Source of the DNA: a virus
Length of the DNA stretch: 64,000 nt
Strand: one strand, 5' to 3'
IMG/VR virus record: IMGVR_UViG_3300031673_000011
Coordinates: 22,567-86,566 of that record
The notes under the pieces are model-generated. The model was not told the origin of the DNA. It did not search any database and saw only the letters and a program-made list of their open reading frames with translations. Positions 3,620-60,035 of this stretch are shown in pieces. Both the position numbers and the translations under genes were made by a program. How positions within the stretch are numbered: the stretch's first letter is position 1; each line of letters starts with the position of its first letter.

Positions 3620-4263
3620 GAATAATAACTTTAACAGATGTTCATAGAATATTAGATAATACAAAGAAAGAAAGTCAAAGGGCAATATTTTTATTTATGT
3701 ATTTAACTGGGGTTAAAATTGGGGAAACATTTAAACTTGAAAAAAGGGATATGATTGATAGCAATCATATAAAAGTTGGTGGAAGGATTATTTTTATAGA
3801 TTCATTAATATTTAAAAGTTATATTGGAAAATATTTAGAAAACTTTTTACCATTTCATAGATTTGTTGGAATTAGAGCATTACAAAAAACATTTAAAAAT
3901 GTTTTAAAGAAGATTGGTGGGTCTGAAAAATGGACTTTAGATGATTTGAGAAAAGGGTTTTTTGTAAGGTGCTTAGCAGAAGGTAAAGATACTTCAGAAA
4001 TTTGTTATTCTCTTGGGATTAAAGAAAAACAAGTTTATATTATGAGGGATTTACTTTTGTTAAATAATGGTGTTTCAAAAAAAGATAGAGATTTGGTATT
4101 TAAAAGAGACAATTTTACTTGTAAGTATTGTAGTAAAAGTTCTCCTGAAGTTGAATTAGAGATAGATCATATTATCCCTGTAGTGAAAGGTGGGAGTAAT
4201 GATTTAGGAAATTTACAAACATTATGTAAGGATTGTAATGAAAGGAAGGGGGATAAATTTTAA
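3616..4263 (+). CDS. degenerate tyrosine-recombinase-like domain fused to HNH endonuclease
   Basis: YLTGVKIGE / TLDDLRKGF / SLG boxes; C-terminal RDNFTCKYC..LEIDHIIP..GGSN..NLQTLCKDCN; ATGA overlap with the resolvase stop. Confidence 0.8.
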   Translation: MRIITLTDVHRILDNTKKESQRAIFLFMYLTGVKIGETFKLEKRDMIDSNHIKVGGRIIFIDSLIFKSYIGKYLENFLPFHRFVGIRALQKTFKNVLKKIGGSEKWTLDDLRKGFFVRCLAEGKDTSEICYSLGIKEKQVYIMRDLLLLNNGVSKKDRDLVFKRDNFTCKYCSKSSPEVELEIDHIIPVVKGGSNDLGNLQTLCKDCNERKGDKF

Positions 4264-4484
4264 AATGAACATTGAATCTGAAGTAAAAGAAATTATACGA
4301 TCTGGAGGAACTAATGAAGAAAAGGCAAGAAGAATATGTAATACAGCTAACTTTTCAGAGGCAAAGGTTTTAAAGGCATTAAATAAAGGTGGAGAAAGGG
4401 TTTCAGATATTTATTTAAATATAGTTGTGGAGAATAAAAAATGATATACAACTACTACATAAAGGGAGGAATATCTTAAAGAAA

Positions 4485-8307: not shown

Positions 8308-9081
8308 ATGACATTAAAAAAATACGAATTACTTAATGAAAGTTTAAAAGCAGTATCAGAAGGAGCAATAAATCTCCTGGTTTTAAAAGGAAATGCTGGA
8401 TCTGGGAAAACTTTTACAACTCTTAAGTATATGAAGAAAGCAAAGATAAATTACAAATACATTAACAATTATGCAACACCCCTTTCATTCTATAAAATTA
8501 TTTATGAAAATAGGAAAAAAGATATAATTATATTTGATGATGTTCAAAGCATTAATGACCCTAGAATTAAATCCATGTTAAAATCTGTTTGTGGAGAATT
8601 AGATGATGGGAAACGAATGGTTAGTTACTATTCAACATCCCCCTTGCTTGAAAAGAACAATTTGCCAGATTCTTTTGAACCAAAGGCAAACATCGTTTTA
8701 ATTTTTAATGATGATATTTCTGGGTTTGAACCAATAACAAATAGAGGAGTAACAATTGACTTCTTTTTTAATTTCCAGGAATTAATAGAGATTTTTGAAT
8801 TCTTTCAGAAATCAGCTAATATAGAACAGGAAGTTCTTGATTATGTCAAAGAGAGTTGTAATGAAGCTACAAGTAATTTAAGCATTAGAACACTTGTAAT
8901 TCTTTCAAATCTTTATAGGAAGGGATATGATTTTAAAATCTTCGCAAAAGAGATATTAAAGACTGATAAAGGGCTTTATGACTTGATAAAACTTAGTGAG
9001 AAAGATTGGTGTAATGAGACTGGAATGAATAGAGCTACATATTATAGGAAAAAGAAAAGTCGCAAAAGTCGCATCATTTAG
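8308..9081 (+). CDS. P-loop (AAA-like) ATPase with C-terminal HTH-like tail
   Basis: Walker A GNAGSGKT, Walker B IIIFDD, TGMNRATYYR. Confidence 0.8.
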   Translation: MTLKKYELLNESLKAVSEGAINLLVLKGNAGSGKTFTTLKYMKKAKINYKYINNYATPLSFYKIIYENRKKDIIIFDDVQSINDPRIKSMLKSVCGELDDGKRMVSYYSTSPLLEKNNLPDSFEPKANIVLIFNDDISGFEPITNRGVTIDFFFNFQELIEIFEFFQKSANIEQEVLDYVKESCNEATSNLSIRTLVILSNLYRKGYDFKIFAKEILKTDKGLYDLIKLSEKDWCNETGMNRATYYRKKKSRKSRII

Positions 9082-9098
9082 GATGTGTGCTTGTTTAT

Positions 9099-9135
9099 AT
9101 TGCTACTATAAAATGATGATAAAAGTTTATAAAGG
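9099..9135 (+). promoter_or_regulatory. class-A-like promoter of the RAMP/array locus
   Basis: ATTGCTACTATAAAATGATGATAAAAGTTTATAAAGG; GGAGGT RBS at ~9184. Confidence 0.65.
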
Positions 9136-9197
9136 AGTGAGTTTTAAATAAAAGATAAAATGAATCTTTTTATACAAATGAAAGGAGGTAAAGAAAA

Positions 9198-9755
9198 ATG
9201 AAGATATATAATATAACAATTGTAGGAACAAGTCCTTTGCTTATGAATAGACCATCTCAATTAGATATTGGTGATAAATCAAAAACAGCAAAGCGAGAAA
9301 CACAAACCCCTAAGGAAATTGCAGAAGCTAAACTTTATATTGATTCAGAAGATAGAATATATTGTCCTGCTACTTGGTTTCATGGTTGTATAGTTGAAGC
9401 AGGAAAGCAAAAGAAGATGTTAGGCAAGGGTTCTGCGAGAGCAAATTATTCAAAAGTTTGTGGTTCAAGTGTTGAGATAAATCCATTTGAAATTTTATTA
9501 AAAGATAAATGGAAAGTATTTTCAATATTGGCTGTTAATCCAACAACAAAGGGAAAAAATATTTTGCATAGACCCCAATTTGATAAATGGGAATTGAATT
9601 TTGAAGTAGCATTTGAAGAAGAACAAATTGAAGTTTCAGTAATGAAAGAAATATTTGATATTGCTGGAAGACAGGTTGGAGTTGGAGATTGGAGACCTGC
9701 AAAGAAAGGAAGATTTGGAAAATTCCAAGTTACTTTGTGGAAAGAGAAAAAATAA
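9198..9755 (+). CDS. stand-alone Cas7/RAMP-fold RNA-binding protein
   Basis: N-terminal beta strand plus GTSPLLMN, IYCPATWFHGCI, RPQFDKWELNFEV, C-terminal G-rich loop GVGDWRP..KGRFGKF typical of RAMPs. Confidence 0.8.
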   Translation: MKIYNITIVGTSPLLMNRPSQLDIGDKSKTAKRETQTPKEIAEAKLYIDSEDRIYCPATWFHGCIVEAGKQKKMLGKGSARANYSKVCGSSVEINPFEILLKDKWKVFSILAVNPTTKGKNILHRPQFDKWELNFEVAFEEEQIEVSVMKEIFDIAGRQVGVGDWRPAKKGRFGKFQVTLWKEKK

Positions 9756-9762
9756 ATCACAA

Positions 9763-9880
9763 ATCATAATCACCTTAATAAGTGATTGAGGTGGGGTGAG
9801 GTGGGGTGAGGTCCAGTGAGGTGGGGTGAGGTATGGTAAGGTCCGGTTTGGTGAGTTTGTCTATTCTCATAAAAATAGAC
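9763..9880 (+). ncRNA. putative guide RNA unit 1: ATCATA leader, hairpin, (GGT-NN)13, hairpin
   Basis: Hairpin AATCAC/GTGATT; GGT (one AGT) every 5 nt from 9790 to 9850; closing hairpin GTCTATT/AATAGAC. Confidence 0.8.
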
Positions 9881-10015
9881 ATCATAGTCATAGAAATATG
9901 ATTGCGGTGTGGTGGGGTTTGGTAAGGTAAGGTGTGGTGAGGTAAGGTATGGTATGGTGTGGTGGGGTGAGGTATGGTATGGTTTGGGAGTTTTGCTCTT
10001 CTCTAAAAAGGGCAA
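9881..10015 (+). ncRNA. putative guide RNA unit 2: ATCATA leader, hairpin, (GGT-NN)16, hairpin
   Basis: Hairpin AGTCATA-GAAA-TATGATT; GGT every 5 nt from 9906 to 9981; closing hairpin TTGCTCTT/AAGGGCAA. Confidence 0.8.
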
Positions 10016-10137
10016 TCATAATCAAGATAAAAATGTTACCCCTTTCAAGTTAATAGAAAGATTTAAATAGTCTTGATTTATTGATATAATAAGAAATATG
10101 GGAAAAAAGAAAATAAATAAATTAGTAAGAAAATAAA

Positions 10138-10443
10138 ATGAAATCAGAAATTGAATTAGGAGATAAAGTGAAATGTTTGATTACAGGATATGAAGGAGTA
10201 GCAGTTGCTAAAACAGAATTTATTAATGGATGTATTCAATTTAGTATAGCTAAACAATTAAAGAAAAAAGATGAAAGATTTCCAGAATTTGGTGACCCAT
10301 CAATAGATAGTTCAAGTTTAAGGGTTATTAAAAAAAGAGCAGTTGATTTAAGAGAAAAAGAAGAAAAAATAGAAAGGGTAAAAGAGAGAGAAAAACATAC
10401 AGGTGGTCCAACTAAATTTATGGGCCCTATGAGAGGATATTAA
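10138..10443 (+). CDS. phage-type hypothetical protein (SH3-like)
   Basis: IELGDKVKC.ITGYEGVAVAKTEFINGC. Confidence 0.75.
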   Translation: MKSEIELGDKVKCLITGYEGVAVAKTEFINGCIQFSIAKQLKKKDERFPEFGDPSIDSSSLRVIKKRAVDLREKEEKIERVKEREKHTGGPTKFMGPMRGY

Positions 10444-10447
10444 TAAA

Positions 10448-10937
10448 ATGGAAAAGAAAGAAGATATAGAAATAAAAGAAAAAATTGATAGAATTTTATT
10501 AAATCAAAGAGCAATAATGAAAAATTTAGCTTTTGGTTTTCCAACTCTAATGAAAGATGAAATATTAAATCAATCTCTATTAACTGGGATTGAAGGAACA
10601 GAAGAAATTTTCAATAAGAATCTTGAGGAGGATAAAGAATAATATGGGAGAAAGATATGAACTTATAAAAAATTGTGCATATTGTGATACACTTCACGAA
10701 GATATTTACTTTGCTCCTACTTGTGGATTTCACACTTTCTCTTGTGATAAATGTGGAAAAAGAAATTTCATTGTCTTAGATGATTCTTTTACTGTTAAGA
10801 AAATGGAAGATGTCACCTATGAAGATATTTATAACTCAATATCTCAAGCATCAAGTATGATGAGTGAAAAGCAAATAGAAGCTGAAGCACAAAATGTTTT
10901 TAGATCTTTATTAAAAGGGTTAGAAATAGAAAAATGA
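10448..10937 (+). other. two small ORFs (10448-10642; ~10644-10937 zinc ribbon CAYC..CDKC)
   Basis: ORF track, tight packing. Confidence 0.6.
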
Positions 10938-11230
10938 ACAAACTTAAATCACTAACTTGGAAATACTTTTTGAAACAAAAGAAAGAAGAGATAGGAGATT
11001 GGATAGATGATTCTTGGGAGCATATATTCGTTATATCTTTATTTGTTGGAGTTTTTCTTCAAGTAGGTTGGAGTGGAGAAAAGACTTATTGGATTGCTAT
11101 TATTGGATTATGTGTTTTGGGTATATGGGTTATAATTGGAATAATATCATTAATCATTGTCATTTATGATTGGATTAATTCCAATTGGAAGGAAGCAAAA
11201 AGAAAAGCAAAAAAGGAATTACAAAAATGA
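10934..11230 (+). CDS. 2-TM membrane protein, paralog A
   Basis: MNKLKSLTWKYF...NSNWKEAKRKAK. Confidence 0.75.
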   Translation: MNKLKSLTWKYFLKQKKEEIGDWIDDSWEHIFVISLFVGVFLQVGWSGEKTYWIAIIGLCVLGIWVIIGIISLIIVIYDWINSNWKEAKRKAKKELQK

Positions 11231-11562
11231 ATAAACTAAAATCACTAACTTGGAAATACTTTTGGAAACAGAAATGGAAAGAAATAGCAAATGTTTTATT
11301 CATTATATTCATTATTTTAGGAGTATTAGGATTAGTTGTTCAAGCTGGTTGGCTATGTAAATATTCTAATTCAGTTGAATGTGGAAATAGTGTTAAATGT
11401 ATATGCAAAGTTCCTTATGAATCAACTTTTCCCCAATGGATTATGTATTCTGGATTTGTTACAACAGGAATTTGGATAATGATTGGTTTAGTATATTGGA
11501 TTAGTTCTAATTGGAAAGAAGCTAAAAGAAAAGCAAAGAATGAGATTGGTGGTAAAAAATGA
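11227..11562 (+). CDS. 2-TM membrane protein, paralog B with Cys-rich loop
   Basis: Same termini as paralog A; ATGA overlap. Confidence 0.75.
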   Translation: MNKLKSLTWKYFWKQKWKEIANVLFIIFIILGVLGLVVQAGWLCKYSNSVECGNSVKCICKVPYESTFPQWIMYSGFVTTGIWIMIGLVYWISSNWKEAKRKAKNEIGGKK

Positions 11563-11973
11563 AAAGTAAAAGATTAGAAATGATAGAAGAAATATGTATT
11601 AGGAATGAAAGAAAATTCATGGAAGTTGCAGAAATATTTTTAAAATATAATGCAAGAGTTTATGTAAGAAGCATCAAAGGGGGAGAATCTTTTAAATTAT
11701 ACAATCCTATCCTGGAAGAAGAAACAATGAGATTAACAGAAAGATATTTTGATATTAAGGCATATAAAGAATTAAGGAGATTAAAAAATGGTTAAATGTG
11801 CTTTATGTAAAAAGAGAAAGGCAGAATTAACTTATACAGAAGGCATGATGTCTTATATTCATGGATTTACTCAAGAAATATGCAGACTATGTTTTATAAG
11901 TATGCTTGAGAGACATATAAAAGATTGTCAGAAACAATTAAAAGAACATAAAAAATTATTAAAAAATGGTTAA
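11559..11973 (+). other. two small ORFs (11559-11795; 11788-11973 with CxxC pairs)
   Basis: ORF track, overlapping start/stop codons. Confidence 0.6.
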
Positions 11974-12149
11974 ACATAATATTGGATTAAAACCAAAATG
12001 CGAAGTATGTGGAAATAGAGGCAAGGTAACTAAGGAAGGATTATGTGCATTATGTTACAAAGATAGGTTCGGAGTTTGGTCAAGAGATTTTATGGCTGAC
12101 TCCGATAAGAGAGGAAAATGAATAAACAAAAGGAGTTAATAAAGCTAAA

Positions 12150-12773
12150 ATGATAAAAATACAAGATATGCCAAAGATAGAATGTCCTTTTGTAAGAGTT
12201 ATGAATGAAAAATTGGATTATGTAGTTATAGACAAAATTGTAGAAGGATATGAATGGGTCTTCAACGATGAAAATGTTATGGCTATTGAAAAACTCCACG
12301 GAACTAATGTATCTATTGTAATTGAAGAAGGAACTGTTACTGCTATTTTTAATCGAACCGAAAGAATACCATTTATAAATAAAGGAAAGAAATGGTTAAT
12401 TGAAGGTATACTTAATTCAAAAGAACGGGGTTATTTAGAATTTTTAGGAGATGGACAATTCTTTGGAGAGTTAATAGGTCCAAAAGTAAATGGAAATCCT
12501 TACAAATTAAAAGAACATTTGTGGATACCTTTTTCTACTTTTTGCCAAAAACATTTAAGATATAAAAGTTGGGGGAAATATCCAAAAGATTTTAATACAA
12601 TTTCGGAATGGTTTAAAGAATTAATCCCTTTATATTCATCTATGGTTCAAGGGGAAGAAGGAAGGAAAAATGGATTTGTTGAAGGAATAGTATTCACTCA
12701 CCCTGATGGAAGGATGGCAAAACTTCGTAGGGATATGTTTGATTGGTATAGAGGAGAAAGGCATAAAGAATGA
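12150..12773 (+). CDS. RNA ligase-family nucleotidyltransferase
   Basis: Motif I EKLHGTN, motif III FFGELIG, motif IV EGIV, motif V MAKLR. Confidence 0.85.
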   Translation: MIKIQDMPKIECPFVRVMNEKLDYVVIDKIVEGYEWVFNDENVMAIEKLHGTNVSIVIEEGTVTAIFNRTERIPFINKGKKWLIEGILNSKERGYLEFLGDGQFFGELIGPKVNGNPYKLKEHLWIPFSTFCQKHLRYKSWGKYPKDFNTISEWFKELIPLYSSMVQGEEGRKNGFVEGIVFTHPDGRMAKLRRDMFDWYRGERHKE

Positions 12774-13111
12774 AAAAGAAAACTTTAAGACAAGGTTTAA
12801 ATGTTTCAGTCAATGAATTAAGAGATTTAGCAGATGATTTAGAAAGCCAAACAAGACAATTCAATGTAGAACTTGACATTGAAGATTTAGTTGATTTTAA
12901 TAAGAAATGGCTTACCAATATAATAAATAAAGAACCAGAATGTTCAGATACCTGGATATTGGAAAATTAAAATGACAATAAAAGAAGAAAAAAAGTGTGA
13001 AGAACATGAGTTAAATTTGATTGATGAAAACTGGATGTCAGAGGATACAACAATGATTACTGCTAAGTGTAATAAATGTAATTGTGAATTTAGAGGTTTA
13101 ATAACAAAAAT

Positions 13112-16692: not shown

Positions 16693-17163
16693 ATGAAAAA
16701 AAGAAGTAAATGGGTAAAAAAGTGTTCTATATGTGGAAAAGTAATTAGAAATTGGAATAAATCTGGTTTATGTACCTTTCATTATAGGAAAGAGTATTGT
16801 AAAAAGCTGGAAGTAAAAGAGAGAAAAAAAGAATACCAGAAAGAATATAATAAAAGACCAGAAGTTAAAGCTAGGAAGAAAGAATATAGTCAAAGACCAG
16901 AAGTTAAAGCTAGAATAAAAAAATATAATAGCAAATATAATAAAAGACCAAAAGTTAAGGCTAAGAGAAAAAAACAACAGAAGGAATATCAACAAAGACC
17001 TGAAGTTAAAGCCAGGAAGAAAGAATATTATCAAAGATCAGAAGTTAAAGCAAGAAGAAAAGAATATTATCAAAGACCTAGGGTTAAAGCTAGAATAAAA
17101 GAACTAAGAAAAGAGAAAAAAGAGGTGAAAAGGAAAAAACAGCTAAGTGTTACTACTATATAG
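16693..17163 (+). CDS. Zn-finger plus RPEVKARKKEY-repeat basic protein
   Basis: CSIC..C..H then 13-17-aa repeats; paralog of the N-terminal half of 59355-60035. Confidence 0.75.
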   Translation: MKKRSKWVKKCSICGKVIRNWNKSGLCTFHYRKEYCKKLEVKERKKEYQKEYNKRPEVKARKKEYSQRPEVKARIKKYNSKYNKRPKVKAKRKKQQKEYQQRPEVKARKKEYYQRSEVKARRKEYYQRPRVKARIKELRKEKKEVKRKKQLSVTTI

Positions 17164-59354: not shown

Positions 59355-60035
59355 TTAATTTTGTAGAAATTTATTTCCTTTACTTCTATTTTTGGACTTT
59401 AATAACCATTGATGATTCTCTGGTTCAAAAGCCCATTTAATTTCTTTAGGATTATCTAAATCAAATCTACTTAAAGGCATAATGTGATCCACATCATAAT
59501 TTTTAATATCTTTTGGAAATGGTTTTAAATGTTCTATTATTTTTTTATAATCTATACCATATTTTTTAGAAGGCATTATCTTTCCTGTTGTTGAATATAA
59601 TTTTAATGCCCTATTTAAAGTGCTTCTTAAATCAATTATCAATTTGTAATTAATATCATTGCTTCTTCTATCTTTAATATAAGTTTTCATATAGATATTC
59701 ATATACTCTTTTCTTTCTGGTTTCTTTTGATAAGTTCTCATGTATTCACTTTTTCTTTTTTTTACTTCTGGTCTTTGAGAATATTCTTTCTTCCTAGCTT
59801 TAACTTCTGGTCTTTGTTGATATTCTTTCTTTCTTGCAATAACTTCTGGTCTTTGATTATATTCTTTTAAGTATGCTTTTCTTTTTGGTCCCTTAACATA
59901 TCCTTTAGCATACTCCTTTTCTTTTTCCTTAAATTCTGGTATCTTCCTACATTCTTTCATATATAAGCTATGATAACACTTTTTACATAGACTTTTACAA
60001 AAAACATCATTTATCCCACAAACTCTACATTTCAT
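59355..60035 (-). CDS. RPEVK-repeat protein with C-terminal HNH/endonuclease VII-like domain
   Basis: CRVC..CKKC, repeats, DVDHIMPLSRFDL..F...NHQWL....NRSKGN. Confidence 0.82.
   Translation of the reverse strand: MKCRVCGINDVFCKSLCKKCYHSLYMKECRKIPEFKEKEKEYAKGYVKGPKRKAYLKEYNQRPEVIARKKEYQQRPEVKARKKEYSQRPEVKKRKSEYMRTYQKKPERKEYMNIYMKTYIKDRRSNDINYKLIIDLRSTLNRALKLYSTTGKIMPSKKYGIDYKKIIEHLKPFPKDIKNYDVDHIMPLSRFDLDNPKEIKWAFEPENHQWLLKSKNRSKGNKFLQN

What the first reader, a model, noticed from the sequence alone, without database searches (positions are those of the whole stretch)
9099..10024. Stand-alone Cas7/RAMP gene plus (GGT-NN)n RNA array: candidate RNA-guided system with a non-contiguous guide code
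Seen: a 185-aa protein with a C-terminal G-rich loop (GVGDWRP..KGRFGKF), its own promoter and RBS, and no other cas gene or CRISPR array in the window. Its stop is followed after 7 nt by two GC-rich units in an otherwise very AT-rich genome. Each unit is ATCATA + hairpin, then an invariant GGT every 5 nt with variable dinucleotides, then GGTTTGG(T)GAGTTT and a closing hairpin. Unit 1 NN (9790-9854): GG GA GG GA CC GA GG GA AT AA CC TT GA. Unit 2 NN (9906-9985): GT GG TT AA AA GT GA AA AT AT GT GG GA AT AT TT. Established: Cas7-family RAMPs polymerise along guide RNA with a fixed nucleotide period. Inference: one subunit binds each GGU and presents NN for pairing, so the NN string spells a gapped target, making a minimal programmable virus-encoded effector, perhaps against competing elements or host genes. 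I recall a recently reported viral family with this layout (GGY/NN repeats, called VIPR) but cannot verify that here; if correct, this would be an archaeal-virus member.
Basis: partly seen in the sequence, partly recalled or inferred. Interest (0 to 1): 0.97.

Follow-up and report, generated by a model that had tools for sequence, protein, structure and literature searches.

The report
VIPR guide-RNA system in archaeal virus
This is a genuine but already-described kind of system: a VIPR locus (one small Cas7-like protein plus two guide RNAs built of GGT-NN repeats) carried by a large virus of tiny DPANN-type archaea, with its natural targets still unknown.

Summary
Window 9198-9755 encodes a 185-aa homolog of the solved SUSP1 Vipr protein (PDB 36pp; E 1.3e-9 alone, 1.7e-18 as a profile). 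Nine of ten published contact residues are conserved.

Two vrRNA genes follow, with 13 and 16 GGT-NN pentamers. They are the only such arrays in the 86.6-kb virus record. Relatives carry same-strand arrays in 75 of 80 IMG/VR loci and 76 of 84 close loci. GGY is fixed and NN varies, even where vipr genes are 93-100% identical (14 of 14 comparable pairs).

The system class, VIPR, was published in 2026 (bioRxiv 10.64898/2026.04.26.720920 and .720927, plus two later preprints). This scan has already noted it 938 times in at least 529 genomes. So this is a new member of a known kind.

New points here:
- An archaeal (DPANN-like) host is supported.
- No conserved accessory gene lies beside vipr.
- The clade has a 5' CATAGTCA-hairpin handle and a 3' pseudoknot-like tail.
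- No target reaching 80% was found.
- Two weak leads: guide 2 reads like an intein N-terminal block, and the end of guide 1 matches vipr's own EINPFE codons.

The parts
9126..9133 (+). TATA-like box TTTATAAA upstream of vipr (putative archaeal promoter; the GTTAC box is degenerate here)
   Evidence: Read. The same TATA version occurs in this virus's repeated promoter: GTTAC-N22-TTTAWAWA has 18 matches against 2.6 expected. The transcription start was not determined.
9186..9190 (+). Shine-Dalgarno GGAGG, 7 nt before the ATG
   Evidence: Read directly.
9198..9755 (+). vipr gene: 185-aa Vipr protein, the RAMP-like VIPR effector
   Evidence: PDB 36pp_D 'SUSP1 Vipr protein': E 1.3e-9 over residues 1-183, and profile E 1.7e-18. 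BLASTP to phiSUSP1 gives 29% identity, E 4e-16. phrog_4652 matches at E 2.9e-26. Residues R125, D164, W165, R166, K27, R33, K70, G76 and K77 align with SUSP1 R138, D177, W178, R179, K33, R39, K82, G87 and K88.
9763..9772 (+). Boundary motif ATCATAATCA (first of three copies); an inferred processing or boundary signal
   Evidence: The related motif [CT]AT[AG]NT[CT] lies upstream of 96 of 117 distinct clade arrays, against 16.5% of shuffles.
9768..9787 (+). 5' handle hairpin of vrRNA1 (AATCAC / loop CTTAATAA / GTGATT)
   Evidence: Fold -7.3 kcal/mol, z -2.0. The stem differs from unit 2 by a compensated C:G to T:A change. The clade shows 35 distinct stem strands.
9790..9854 (+). vrRNA1 repeat tract: 13 GGT-NN pentamers (sixth is AGT-GA at 9815-9819). 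NN = GG GA GG GA CC GA GG GA AT AA CC TT GA
9845..9881 (+). vrRNA1 3' tail: GGTTTGGTGAGTTTG plus a hairpin (stem 9858-9865 / 9874-9881, loop CTCATAAA). A possible pseudoknot pairs UGAG (9852-9855) with CUCA (9866-9869)
   Evidence: Fold -9.1 kcal/mol, z -2.1. The same architecture with different stems occurs in L084, L127, L159, L116/118 and L142. The SUSP1 tails show the same logic.
9881..9890 (+). Boundary motif ATCATAGTCA between the two units
9886..9903 (+). 5' handle hairpin of vrRNA2 (AGTCAT / AGAAAT / ATGATT)
   Evidence: Fold -4.7 kcal/mol, z -4.1; 1 of 200 shuffles folds as well.
9906..9985 (+). vrRNA2 repeat tract: 16 GGT-NN pentamers. NN = GT GG TT AA AA GT GA AA AT AT GT GG GA AT AT TT
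9981..10015 (+). vrRNA2 3' tail: GGTTTGGGAGTTTTG plus a hairpin (9993-10000 / 10008-10015, one G.U pair, loop CTCTAAA). A possible pseudoknot pairs GGAG (9987-9990) with CUCU (10001-10004)
   Evidence: Hairpin found by script and seen in the alignment. My fold of 9981-10006 was cut too short to show it.
10015..10024 (+). Third copy of the boundary motif ATCATAATCA, with no array behind it
   Evidence: The same motif follows the last tail in L142 and L108.
10035..10069 (+). Promoter of the next gene (GTTACCCCT ... TTTAAATA). It marks the downstream limit of the locus
   Evidence: Exact match to the 18-copy promoter pattern.

Best explanation
The locus is a VIPR (Viral Interference Programmable Repeat) system carried by an 86.6-kb virus or mobile element of a DPANN-type archaeon.

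Shown here:
- The protein is a Vipr homolog with the published RNA- and DNA-contact residues.
- Two GGY-NN arrays lie directly behind it on the same strand.
- The gene-plus-array association holds across the family.
- GGY is fixed while NN turns over quickly.

Inferred from the published SUSP1 work:
- vipr and both vrRNAs are probably made as one transcript from the TATA box at 9126.
- That transcript is probably cut at the ATCATARTCA boundary motifs into RNAs of about 120 and 135 nt.
- One Vipr protomer binds each GGU and flips it out.
- The filament presents the NN dinucleotides, which pair with double-stranded DNA while skipping every third target base (NNx).
- The 3' pseudoknot-like tail caps the filament.
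- Binding silences transcription of the target.

Predicted recognition strings:
- Guide 1: GGnGAnGGnGAnCCnGAnGGnGAnATnAAnCC(nTTnGA).
- Guide 2: GTnGGnTTnAAnAAnGTnGAnAAnATnATnGTnGGnGAnATnAT(nTT).

The most likely role is silencing genes of a competing mobile element. No conserved accessory (vap) gene accompanies vipr, so binding alone is probably the whole activity.
For: Protein.
- PDB 36pp_D SUSP1 Vipr matches at E 1.3e-9 and at profile E 1.7e-18, with no Cas7 chain at E <= 1.
- BLASTP to phiSUSP1 Vipr gives E 4e-16.
- Nine of ten residues named in the cryo-EM paper are conserved; H17 is N here.
- The family has 2,981 clusters (at 50% identity) at E <= 1e-3.

Arrays.
- These are the only two arrays in the whole record.
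- 75 of 80 IMG/VR loci and 76 of 84 close loci carry arrays of 6 or more units, almost all on the vipr strand.
- Over 2,650 units, position 3 is Y in 97.7%. My detector does not require this. Positions 4 and 5 have 1.78 and 1.72 bits of entropy.
- In 14 of 14 comparable pairs with 93-100% identical vipr DNA, at least one array differs. L001 and L087 have identical vipr genes but 14 and 50 units.
- NN usage tracks sense-strand codon positions 1-2 of this virus (r 0.96, against 0.82 and 0.66 for the other frames and 0.39-0.56 for antisense). This fits the wobble-skip rule.

Self-targeting. The best own-genome scores are 17/26 and 22/32, equal to the shuffled control. The paper reports the same for its systems.

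Tail. The logic matches the SUSP1 tails.

Mechanism, rule and role come from papers 10.64898/2026.04.26.720920 and .720927.

Archaeal context.
Against: - No natural target was found. Six exact sub-pattern scans of IMG/VR gave only chance-level extensions, best 21/26 and 25/32 with 16-18 bases forced.
- 401 genomes of the phylum of a Nanoarchaeota MAG gave 0 hits for guide 2. Guide 1 gave 3 hits against 2 control hits.
- Guides of relatives do not hit this genome or the clade's vipr genes more under skip 1 than under skips 0, 2 or 3.
- Expression, processing and RNP formation are untested. No RNA run holds the stretch.
- Guide 1 is low-complexity (GG GA repeated) and has one AGT unit, so it may be decaying.
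- Vipr has only a partial copy of the virus's promoter.
- The pseudoknot rests on three pairing classes. My loop-shuffle test was weak (mean 2.96 against 2.63).
Confidence: 0.88

Rival explanations
1. It is a working VIPR system, but the guides regulate host genes (the DPANN cell or its partner organism) or the virus's own genes rather than a rival element. One option is autoregulation of vipr through the six 3' NN of guide 1.
For: No rival-element target was found. Of all 19 six-NN windows from both guides, only one has an exact match in the whole record. It is guide 1's NN8-13, and it falls in frame on vipr codons 93-98 (EINPFE, window 9474-9490). That site is one of about 185 in-frame sites among 173,040 positions.
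Against: - The full guide matches its own vipr at only 17/26, below the 80% the paper uses.
- The last two NN (TT, GA) belong to the constant tail.
- 401 DPANN-phylum genomes gave nothing above control.
- Published systems show no self-targets.
Confidence: 0.15
2. The locus is a decaying VIPR remnant. The protein is intact, but one or both guides are no longer functional and are drifting by slippage.
For: - Guide 1 has an internal 10-nt period ((GGTGG GGTGA)n) and one AGT unit.
- Guide 2 has a 25-nt period with 85% matches.
- The third boundary motif has no array behind it.
- No target was found.
Against: - The ORF is intact and the contact residues are kept.
- Both units keep a complete 5' hairpin and 3' tail.
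- The identical sequence is held in contigs of four soil metagenome runs, with no differences outside the repeat the tool skipped.
- Degenerate internal units are called frequent in the paper's methods.
Confidence: 0.08
3. It is not an RNA guide at all. The GGT-NN tracts would be DNA-level elements (protein-binding repeats, G-rich structure) or an orphan Cas7 with a degenerate mini-CRISPR.
For: Nothing specific. Transcription of the tracts is unproven here.
Against: - The family-wide, same-strand association with vipr.
- A fixed GGY with variable NN.
- Conserved hairpins flanking each unit, with compensatory changes.
- Direct homology to a protein solved in complex with such RNA.
- No CRISPR repeat, Cas1 or Pfam RAMP match.
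Confidence: 0.02

Closest known systems
VIPR systems (Vipr + vrRNA). Reference: type II of Escherichia phage SUSP1 (bioRxiv 10.64898/2026.04.26.720920, 10.64898/2026.04.26.720927, 10.64898/2026.10.15.759431)
   Same: - A homologous effector of about 20 kDa with the same G-loop (GVGDWRP) and thumb arginine.
- vrRNAs of 13 and 16 GGY-NN pentamers, within the published 9-16.
- A constant 3' tail: a hairpin whose loop can pair with the end of the repeat tract, as in the SUSP1 tails.
- A viral carrier.
- No self-target.
   Different: - Only 29% identity to SUSP1 Vipr, with a 4-residue insertion (AKKG) after GDWRP, and H17 replaced by N.
- No vap gene. None of 14 neighbouring proteins recurs beside vipr in 165 related loci, except the ATPase in one locus.
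- Both vrRNAs sit directly behind the vipr stop codon with no promoter of the virus's type between them.
- Each vrRNA has a 5' CATAGTCA-hairpin handle that the SUSP1 units lack.
- The host is archaeal.
- The type (I-VII) could not be assigned, because the classification data are in supplements I could not open. The lack of a vap gene, and a weak hammerhead-like element in a 79%-identical relative (L089, HH9 21.8 bits, E 0.005, below the gathering score), fit what the text and legends say of type I. That fit is inference.
Class 1 CRISPR Cas7 / RAMP backbone subunits (Cas7, Csm3, Cmr4)
   Same: According to the papers: an RRM core, a glycine-rich loop and a thumb; one subunit per fixed RNA period; and periodic base flipping.
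   Different: - No detectable sequence match to Pfam RAMPs, PADLOC Cas models or any Cas7 chain in PDB.
- The period is 5 nt with 3 bases flipped, against 6 nt with 1 flipped.
- No CRISPR array, Cas1 or other cas gene was found.
- The guide is encoded in the repeat itself.
Hammerhead-interspersed and staggered VIPR arrays (legends of figs S18, S19 of 10.64898/2026.04.26.720920)
   Same: These are alternative ways of separating adjacent vrRNAs. Relatives of this Vipr show a hammerhead-like element (L089) and overlapping out-of-phase arrays (for example L017 and L019).
   Different: The window has neither. Its units are separated by the tail hairpin plus the ATCATARTCA motif plus a 5' hairpin. 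Rfam finds nothing in 9000-10200.

Membership tests
VIPR (Vipr + vrRNA) | Effector homologous to described Vipr proteins | tested here: met
   PDB 36pp_D SUSP1 Vipr at E 1.3e-9 and profile E 1.7e-18. tblastn matched 126 phage records, among them SUSP1, SUSP2 and Felixounavirus records at about 29% identity over 99% of the query.
VIPR (Vipr + vrRNA) | Residues that hold GGY and the DNA strands (SUSP1 H17, R138, D177, W178, R179, K33, R39, K82, G87/K88) | tested here: met
   Nine of ten are conserved in the pairwise alignment, and H17 aligns with N17. Most are invariant or nearly invariant in the 40-sequence alignment A1.
VIPR (Vipr + vrRNA) | RAMP-type fold (RRM core, G-loop, thumb) shown by structure | not testable with these tools
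The ESM Atlas holds no model. The fold is inferred only from full-length homology to the solved protein.
VIPR (Vipr + vrRNA) | Adjacent tandem YNNGG (GGY/NN) repeats, at least 4 units (9-16 in the characterised clades) | tested here: met
   13 and 16 units at 9790-9854 and 9906-9985, on the same strand and 35 nt after the stop codon. They are the only such arrays in 86.6 kb.
VIPR (Vipr + vrRNA) | GGY conserved and NN hypervariable among relatives | tested here: met
   Over 2,650 units, G is 97.7% and 99.7% at positions 1 and 2 (partly forced by detection). Y is 97.7% at position 3 (not forced). NN entropy is 1.78 and 1.72 bits. In 14 of 14 comparable near-identical vipr pairs, at least one array differs.
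VIPR (Vipr + vrRNA) | Constant structured 3' tail (a pseudoknot in the SUSP1 clade) | tested here: inconclusive
   A hairpin is present in both units, and stems covary across relatives. Pseudoknot pairing is seen in three classes (GAG:CUC, AAGU:ACUU, AGUU:AACU) and parallels SUSP1. The shuffle test was weak, and a column-wise count was not possible on the MAFFT alignment.
VIPR (Vipr + vrRNA) | Accessory vap gene (typical, not universal) | tested here: not met
   None of 14 neighbouring proteins is conserved next to vipr in 165 loci, except the ATPase in L116. Pfam, PADLOC and NCBIfam give no DNA-binding or nuclease partner. The paper names vap genes for types II-VII only, so this does not exclude membership.
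VIPR (Vipr + vrRNA) | Natural target matching at least 80% of NN under the 1-nt skip rule | tested here: inconclusive
   None was found in the own genome, 909 kb of fetched loci, IMG/VR (six exact sub-pattern scans) or 401 DPANN-phylum genomes. These searches cannot see targets with scattered mismatches or targets in unsampled elements.
VIPR (Vipr + vrRNA) | vrRNAs expressed and bound by Vipr | not testable with these tools
   No RNA run holds the stretch. This needs sRNA-seq or a pull-down.
CRISPR-Cas Cas7 / RAMP (strict sense) | Match to Cas7/RAMP profiles and association with a CRISPR array and other cas genes | tested here: not met
   - No Pfam family at E <= 10.
- PF03787 and Cas1 are absent from the record.
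- No PADLOC model matches.
- No Cas7 chain in PDB at E <= 1.
- No CRISPR-like repeat in the window.

The most novel reading that the evidence does not exclude
The two guides may reveal target classes not described in the main texts of the VIPR papers I read.

Guide 2. Read as codons, it follows the N-terminal splicing block of an intein (G-[FL]-K-K-x3-[ILM]-x2-G-D-x-[IV]-F).
- 4 of 6 exact IMG/VR hits to its core lie in Hom_end_hint domains.
- The virus's own intein N-block is one of only 4 positions in 173,040 that score 21/32 or more, and it aligns in register.
- So the virus may silence or exclude a rival intein allele while sparing its own.

Guide 1. Its tail-proximal six NN equal vipr's own conserved EINPFE codons. 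This hints at anti-VIPR targeting or autoregulation.

Clade architecture. This DPANN-virus clade may also use a distinct way of making guides:
- co-transcription with vipr;
- CATAGTCA-hairpin handles;
- uninterrupted arrays of up to 72 units in relatives.
Probability: 0.25. Interest if true: 0.6.

Novelty: new member of a known kind. Interest (0 to 1): 0.3.

Why it matters
VIPR is a recently described RNA-guided DNA-recognition system with a gapped code, proposed to predate CRISPR. This locus adds a clean, minimal example: one gene and two guides, with no accessory gene. It sits in a large virus of DPANN-type archaea, a host group for which almost no virus biology is known.

It does not change what VIPR is. 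Its practical value is threefold:
- It is a compact archaeal ortholog for comparison.
- Its clade, sampled here in 84 close loci and 122 distinct arrays, shows how fast guides turn over next to identical effector genes.
- It gives two testable target leads: an intein N-block and vipr itself.

Tried and rejected
Targets.
- The own genome is no better than guides with shuffled NN order.
- IMG/VR sub-pattern scans gave these results:
  - guide 1 NN1-10: 0 hits;
  - guide 2 NN1-9: 8 hits, at most 24/32;
  - guide 2 NN7-15: 1 hit, 21/32;
  - guide 1 NN4-11: 10 hits, at most 21/26;
  - guide 2 NN4-12: 6 hits, at most 25/32;
  - guide 1 NN6-13: 46 hits, at most 21/26.
  All are at chance once the forced bases are discounted.
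- In 401 genomes of the phylum of a Nanoarchaeota MAG, guide 2 had 0 hits. Guide 1 had 3 hits against 2 control hits.
- Guide 1 against 144 vipr homologs scored at best 18/26.
- 1,620 ten-NN windows from relatives' guides, run against this genome, gave the same score distributions for skips 0-3.
- 1,887 eight-NN windows run against 80 vipr genes gave the same result.
- I first read the top own-genome hit of guide 2 (genome 12725) as intein-like. Pfam shows it is a NifU_N gene, so I dropped it.
- Five intein homologs match only 7-9 of 16 residue classes at the homologous site.

RNA.
- Rfam found nothing real in 9000-10200.
- Rfam found nothing at gathering score in 20 close loci.
- A column-wise covariation count of the tail was abandoned, because MAFFT put loops of 7 and 8 nt out of register.
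- My loop-shuffle test for the pseudoknot was weak.

Expression. No RNA holder was listed for the stretch. The laid runs were DNA contigs only, and the tool skipped 9784-9847 as a repeat.

Annotation. Pfam, NCBIfam and PADLOC give no name for the protein. ESM Atlas neighbours are unnamed viral clusters.

Not seen. They hold the type assignments, the taxonomy, and whether this record is among the 664 loci. Claims about type, and about what is 'not described', are limited to the texts read:
- 720920: outline; Results and Discussion in full; Methods parts 1-2 of 4; passages including supplementary figure legends.
- 720927: abstract and Results part 1 of 2.
- 759431: abstract, outline and four passages.
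- 760802: abstract and passages.
Full report
WHAT IS THERE

The window is part of a single-contig virus record of 86,566 bp with 28.7% G+C. At 9198-9755 (+) lies a 185-aa ORF, preceded by GGAGG (9186-9190) and a TATA-like TTTATAAA (9126-9133).

Seven bases after its stop codon comes ATCATAATCA. Two units of the same build follow:
- a short 5' hairpin (9768-9787 and 9886-9903);
- a tract of GGT-NN pentamers (13 units at 9790-9854 and 16 units at 9906-9985);
- the string GGTTTGG(T)GAGTTT(T)G;
- a closing hairpin with an A-rich loop (9858-9881 and 9993-10015);
- ATCATARTCA again (9881-9890 and 10015-10024).

The one slip is that the sixth unit of array 1 reads AGT, not GGT (9815).

Runs of four or more GG at a 5-nt period occur nowhere else in the record on either strand. 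The next gene has its own promoter at 10035-10069. That promoter is one of 18 copies of GTTAC-N22-TTTAWAWA in the window, against 2.6 expected and with 0 of 100 shuffles reaching 18.

THE PROTEIN

Pfam, NCBIfam and PADLOC give no name for it. PHROGs places it in phrog_4652, of unknown function (E 2.9e-26).

Against the Protein Data Bank, the only real match is 36pp chain D, 'SUSP1 Vipr protein'. The match is E 1.3e-9 over residues 1-183, and E 1.7e-18 with a profile of 40 relatives. No Cas7, Csm3 or Cmr4 chain appears at E <= 1.

BLASTP against the phiSUSP1 gene product gives 29% identity, E 4e-16. In that alignment, nine residues the cryo-EM paper names as holding G1, G2, Y3 and the two DNA strands are conserved:

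| SUSP1 | This protein |
|---|---|
| R138 | R125 |
| D177 | D164 |
| W178 | W165 |
| R179 | R166 |
| K33 | K27 |
| R39 | R33 |
| K82 | K70 |
| G87 | G76 |
| K88 | K77 |
| H17 | N17 (changed) |

Most of the conserved positions are invariant or nearly invariant in the clade.

The family is large: 2,981 clusters at 50% identity at E <= 1e-3.

RELATIVES AND THEIR ARRAYS

Of 80 IMG/VR loci encoding relatives, 75 carry at least one array of six or more GG units at a 5-nt period, nearly all on the vipr strand. No shuffled control was run on these loci.

Of 84 closer loci (44-88% identity; 4 from IMG/VR and 80 from metagenomes), 76 carry arrays.
- Five of the eight without arrays end within 50 nt of the gene.
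- Three (L090, L099, L105) have room but no array by my criterion.

Over 122 distinct arrays and 2,650 units:
- position 3 is T or C in 97.7%, which my detector does not demand;
- positions 4 and 5 carry 1.78 and 1.72 bits of entropy.

Fifteen locus pairs have vipr DNA at least 93% identical. One pair lacks an array at a contig end. In all 14 comparable pairs at least one array differs. L001 and L087 have identical vipr genes but 14 and 50 units. Array ends tend to be shared while the middle is replaced.

WHAT IT IS

The system was published in 2026 as VIPR. I read the Results, Discussion and part of the Methods of bioRxiv 10.64898/2026.04.26.720920. I read half of the Results of 10.64898/2026.04.26.720927. 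Their main points are:
- The effector is a Vipr protein related to CRISPR RAMPs.
- vrRNAs have 9-16 YNNGG repeats plus a structured 3' tail.
- One protomer binds per repeat, with GGY flipped out.
- NN pairs with double-stranded DNA while skipping one target base.
- The outcome is transcriptional silencing, mostly of rival mobile elements.
- There are seven types with varied array layouts.
- Members occur in phages and archaeal viruses.

Two later preprints extend this. One covers SUSP1 against its satellite and solo vrRNAs aimed at rivals' vipr. The other is a language-model atlas that recovers 99 VIPR-like clusters.

This scan has already noted VIPR 938 times in at least 529 genomes. The locus is thus a new member of a known kind.

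HOST

The record encodes several archaeal markers:
- an MCM helicase (PF00493, E 9e-52, with OB and lid domains);
- a protein with the archaeal S_layer_C domain (E 5e-11);
- promoters of BRE/TATA type.

The five GTDB-genome contigs that encode relatives are labelled Nanoarchaeota (59%), 'bacterium' (57%), Woesearchaeota (48%), Parvarchaeota (43%) and Dehalococcoidales (37%). An archaeal, DPANN-type host is therefore likely but not proven.

Six soil-metagenome runs hold the stretch. Contigs in the four runs I laid are identical to it. The same soils also hold many other contigs that share only the conserved vipr 3' end and GGT repeats and then diverge. These are other VIPR loci.

HOW THIS MEMBER DIFFERS FROM THE SUSP1 REFERENCE

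- No accessory gene. None of 14 neighbouring proteins recurs beside vipr in 165 related loci, apart from the ATPase in L116.
- Likely co-transcription. Both vrRNAs lie between the vipr stop codon and the next promoter, with no promoter of the virus's type before them, so co-transcription and processing are likely. This is inference.
- A 5' handle. Each unit has one, and it is a clade feature.
  - The motif [CT]AT[AG]NT[CT] precedes 96 of 117 distinct arrays, against 16.5% of shuffles.
  - A hairpin of 5 bp or more abuts 69 of 117 arrays, against 19.6% of shuffles.
  - There are 35 different stem strands.
  - The SUSP1 units lack this handle.
- A similar tail. The tail resembles SUSP1's in logic. 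The bases right after the last GG can pair with the 5' part of the hairpin loop:
  - window UGAG:CUCA and GGAG:CUCU;
  - relatives AAGU:ACUU and AGUU:AACU;
  - SUSP1 GUAG:CUAC and GUGG:CCAC.
  My statistical test of this pairing was weak.
- A possible hammerhead in a relative. One 79%-identical relative has a hammerhead-like element before its first vrRNA (HH9, 21.8 bits, E 0.005, below the gathering score).

The missing vap gene and the hammerhead-like element fit what the text says of type I. The typing data are in supplements I could not open.

TARGETS

NN usage in the clade follows sense-strand codon positions 1-2 of this virus (r 0.96). The other frames give 0.82 and 0.66, and antisense frames 0.39-0.56. 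This is as expected for wobble-skipping guides that read like the coding strand.

No target at 80% or more was found for either guide. I searched the own genome, 909 kb of fetched loci, IMG/VR (six exact sub-pattern scans) and 401 genomes of the phylum of a Nanoarchaeota MAG.

Two leads remain.

Lead 1: guide 2 and inteins.
- The core of guide 2 decodes to [KN][KN]V[DE][KN][IM][IM]VG.
- 4 of its 6 exact IMG/VR hits lie at the start of Hom_end_hint (intein) domains (E 1e-14 to 1e-20).
- I then checked the virus's own intein, an insertion carrying LAGLIDADG-like motifs (read by eye in the translation) in a DUF5131/radical-SAM gene. The Pfam intein match is below its cut-off (25.3 bits against 35.8). 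Its N-block scores 21/32 in register. Only 4 of 173,040 positions score that high.
- Five homologous inteins match 7-9 of 16 residue classes.
- This is resemblance at the level of a motif, not a target. An earlier motif-level claim in this scan partly fell on later checking.

Lead 2: guide 1 and vipr.
- Of all 19 six-NN windows of both guides, only one has an exact match in the record. It is the last window of guide 1, and it lies in frame on vipr codons 93-98 (EINPFE, 9474-9490).
- The full guide matches its own vipr at 17/26, and 144 homologs at 18/26 at best.
- The clade's guides show no skip-1 enrichment on vipr genes.

VERDICT

The thing is a bona fide VIPR locus in an archaeal virus. It is already known as a kind and ordinary within that kind. 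It has a clade-specific RNA layout and unknown targets.

Noticed in passing
window 9474-9490 (vipr codons 93-98) and 9825-9854 (last six NN of vrRNA1): The last six NN of guide 1 (GA AT AA CC TT GA) match vipr's own conserved EINPFE codons in frame. This is the only exact six-NN match of either guide anywhere in the 86.6-kb record. The full guide matches only 17/26.
   Followed up: partly
window 9906-9985; genome C1:15313 (L166:15313-15359); L192, L193, L194, L196: Read as codons, guide 2 resembles an intein N-terminal splicing block. 4 of 6 exact IMG/VR hits to its core are in Hom_end_hint domains. The virus's own intein N-block is among the 4 best of 173,040 positions (21/32, in register).
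   Followed up: partly
L114:3554-3913, L091:3089-3348, L087:785-1034, L083:3098-3342: Close relatives carry uninterrupted in-phase GGY-NN arrays of 49-72 units, far beyond the 9-16 given for the characterised clades. The median in this clade is 18 units. Whether these are single long guides or unprocessed multi-guides is unknown.
   Followed up: partly
L001:3599-3668 and L087:785-1034: Two viral contigs have 100% identical vipr DNA and the same 5' handle and 3' end, but arrays of 14 and 50 units. This shows rapid expansion or replacement of the guide middle.
   Followed up: partly
L089:3051-3138: A hammerhead-like element (CUGAUGAG...CGAAAC...GUC) sits directly before the first vrRNA of a 79%-identical relative. 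It scores Rfam HH9 21.8 bits, E 0.005, below the gathering score of 52.
   Followed up: partly
genome C1:1-142 and C1:86425-86566: The record begins and ends with the same roughly 142 bases (a direct terminal repeat, or the overlap of a circular assembly). IMG/VR nevertheless classes it as linear, and CheckV puts it at 55% complete.
   Followed up: no
window, 18 sites, e.g. 1673, 5827, 8251, 10035, 17149, 20226: A repeated promoter, GTTAC-N22-TTTAWAWA with an AGAAAG BRE-like stretch, has 18 matches against 2.6 expected. Vipr itself has only the TATA part.
   Followed up: yes
L166:14908-16695 (genome C1): A DUF5131/radical-SAM-like gene is interrupted by an intein-like insertion with LAGLIDADG-like motifs (CYDEKT... 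start, ...FCGN|S end, read by eye). The Pfam Intein_splicing match is only 25.3 bits, below its cut-off. Next to it lie a NifU_N gene (12650-13036) and an MCM helicase with an N-terminal HTH (9944-12637).
   Followed up: partly
window 16788-17112 (+) and 59760-59867: A 39-nt coding tandem repeat (AGAAAGAATATAATAAAAGACCAGAAGTTAAAGC...) reappears in reverse complement about 43 kb away.
   Followed up: no
L017:2384-2831 and 3993-4318; L019:1821-2885: More distant IMG/VR relatives show chains of overlapping, out-of-phase arrays. These fit the 'staggered' layout mentioned in the paper's fig. S18 legend.
   Followed up: no
window 9677-9744 and 9915-9982 (contig depth in runs X1, X4, X5, X6): In the soil metagenomes that hold this virus, summed contig depth is 5-10 times higher over the conserved vipr 3' end and the GGT repeats than over the rest. 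The extra contigs run on into different arrays. Many distinct VIPR loci therefore coexist in these samples.
   Followed up: partly
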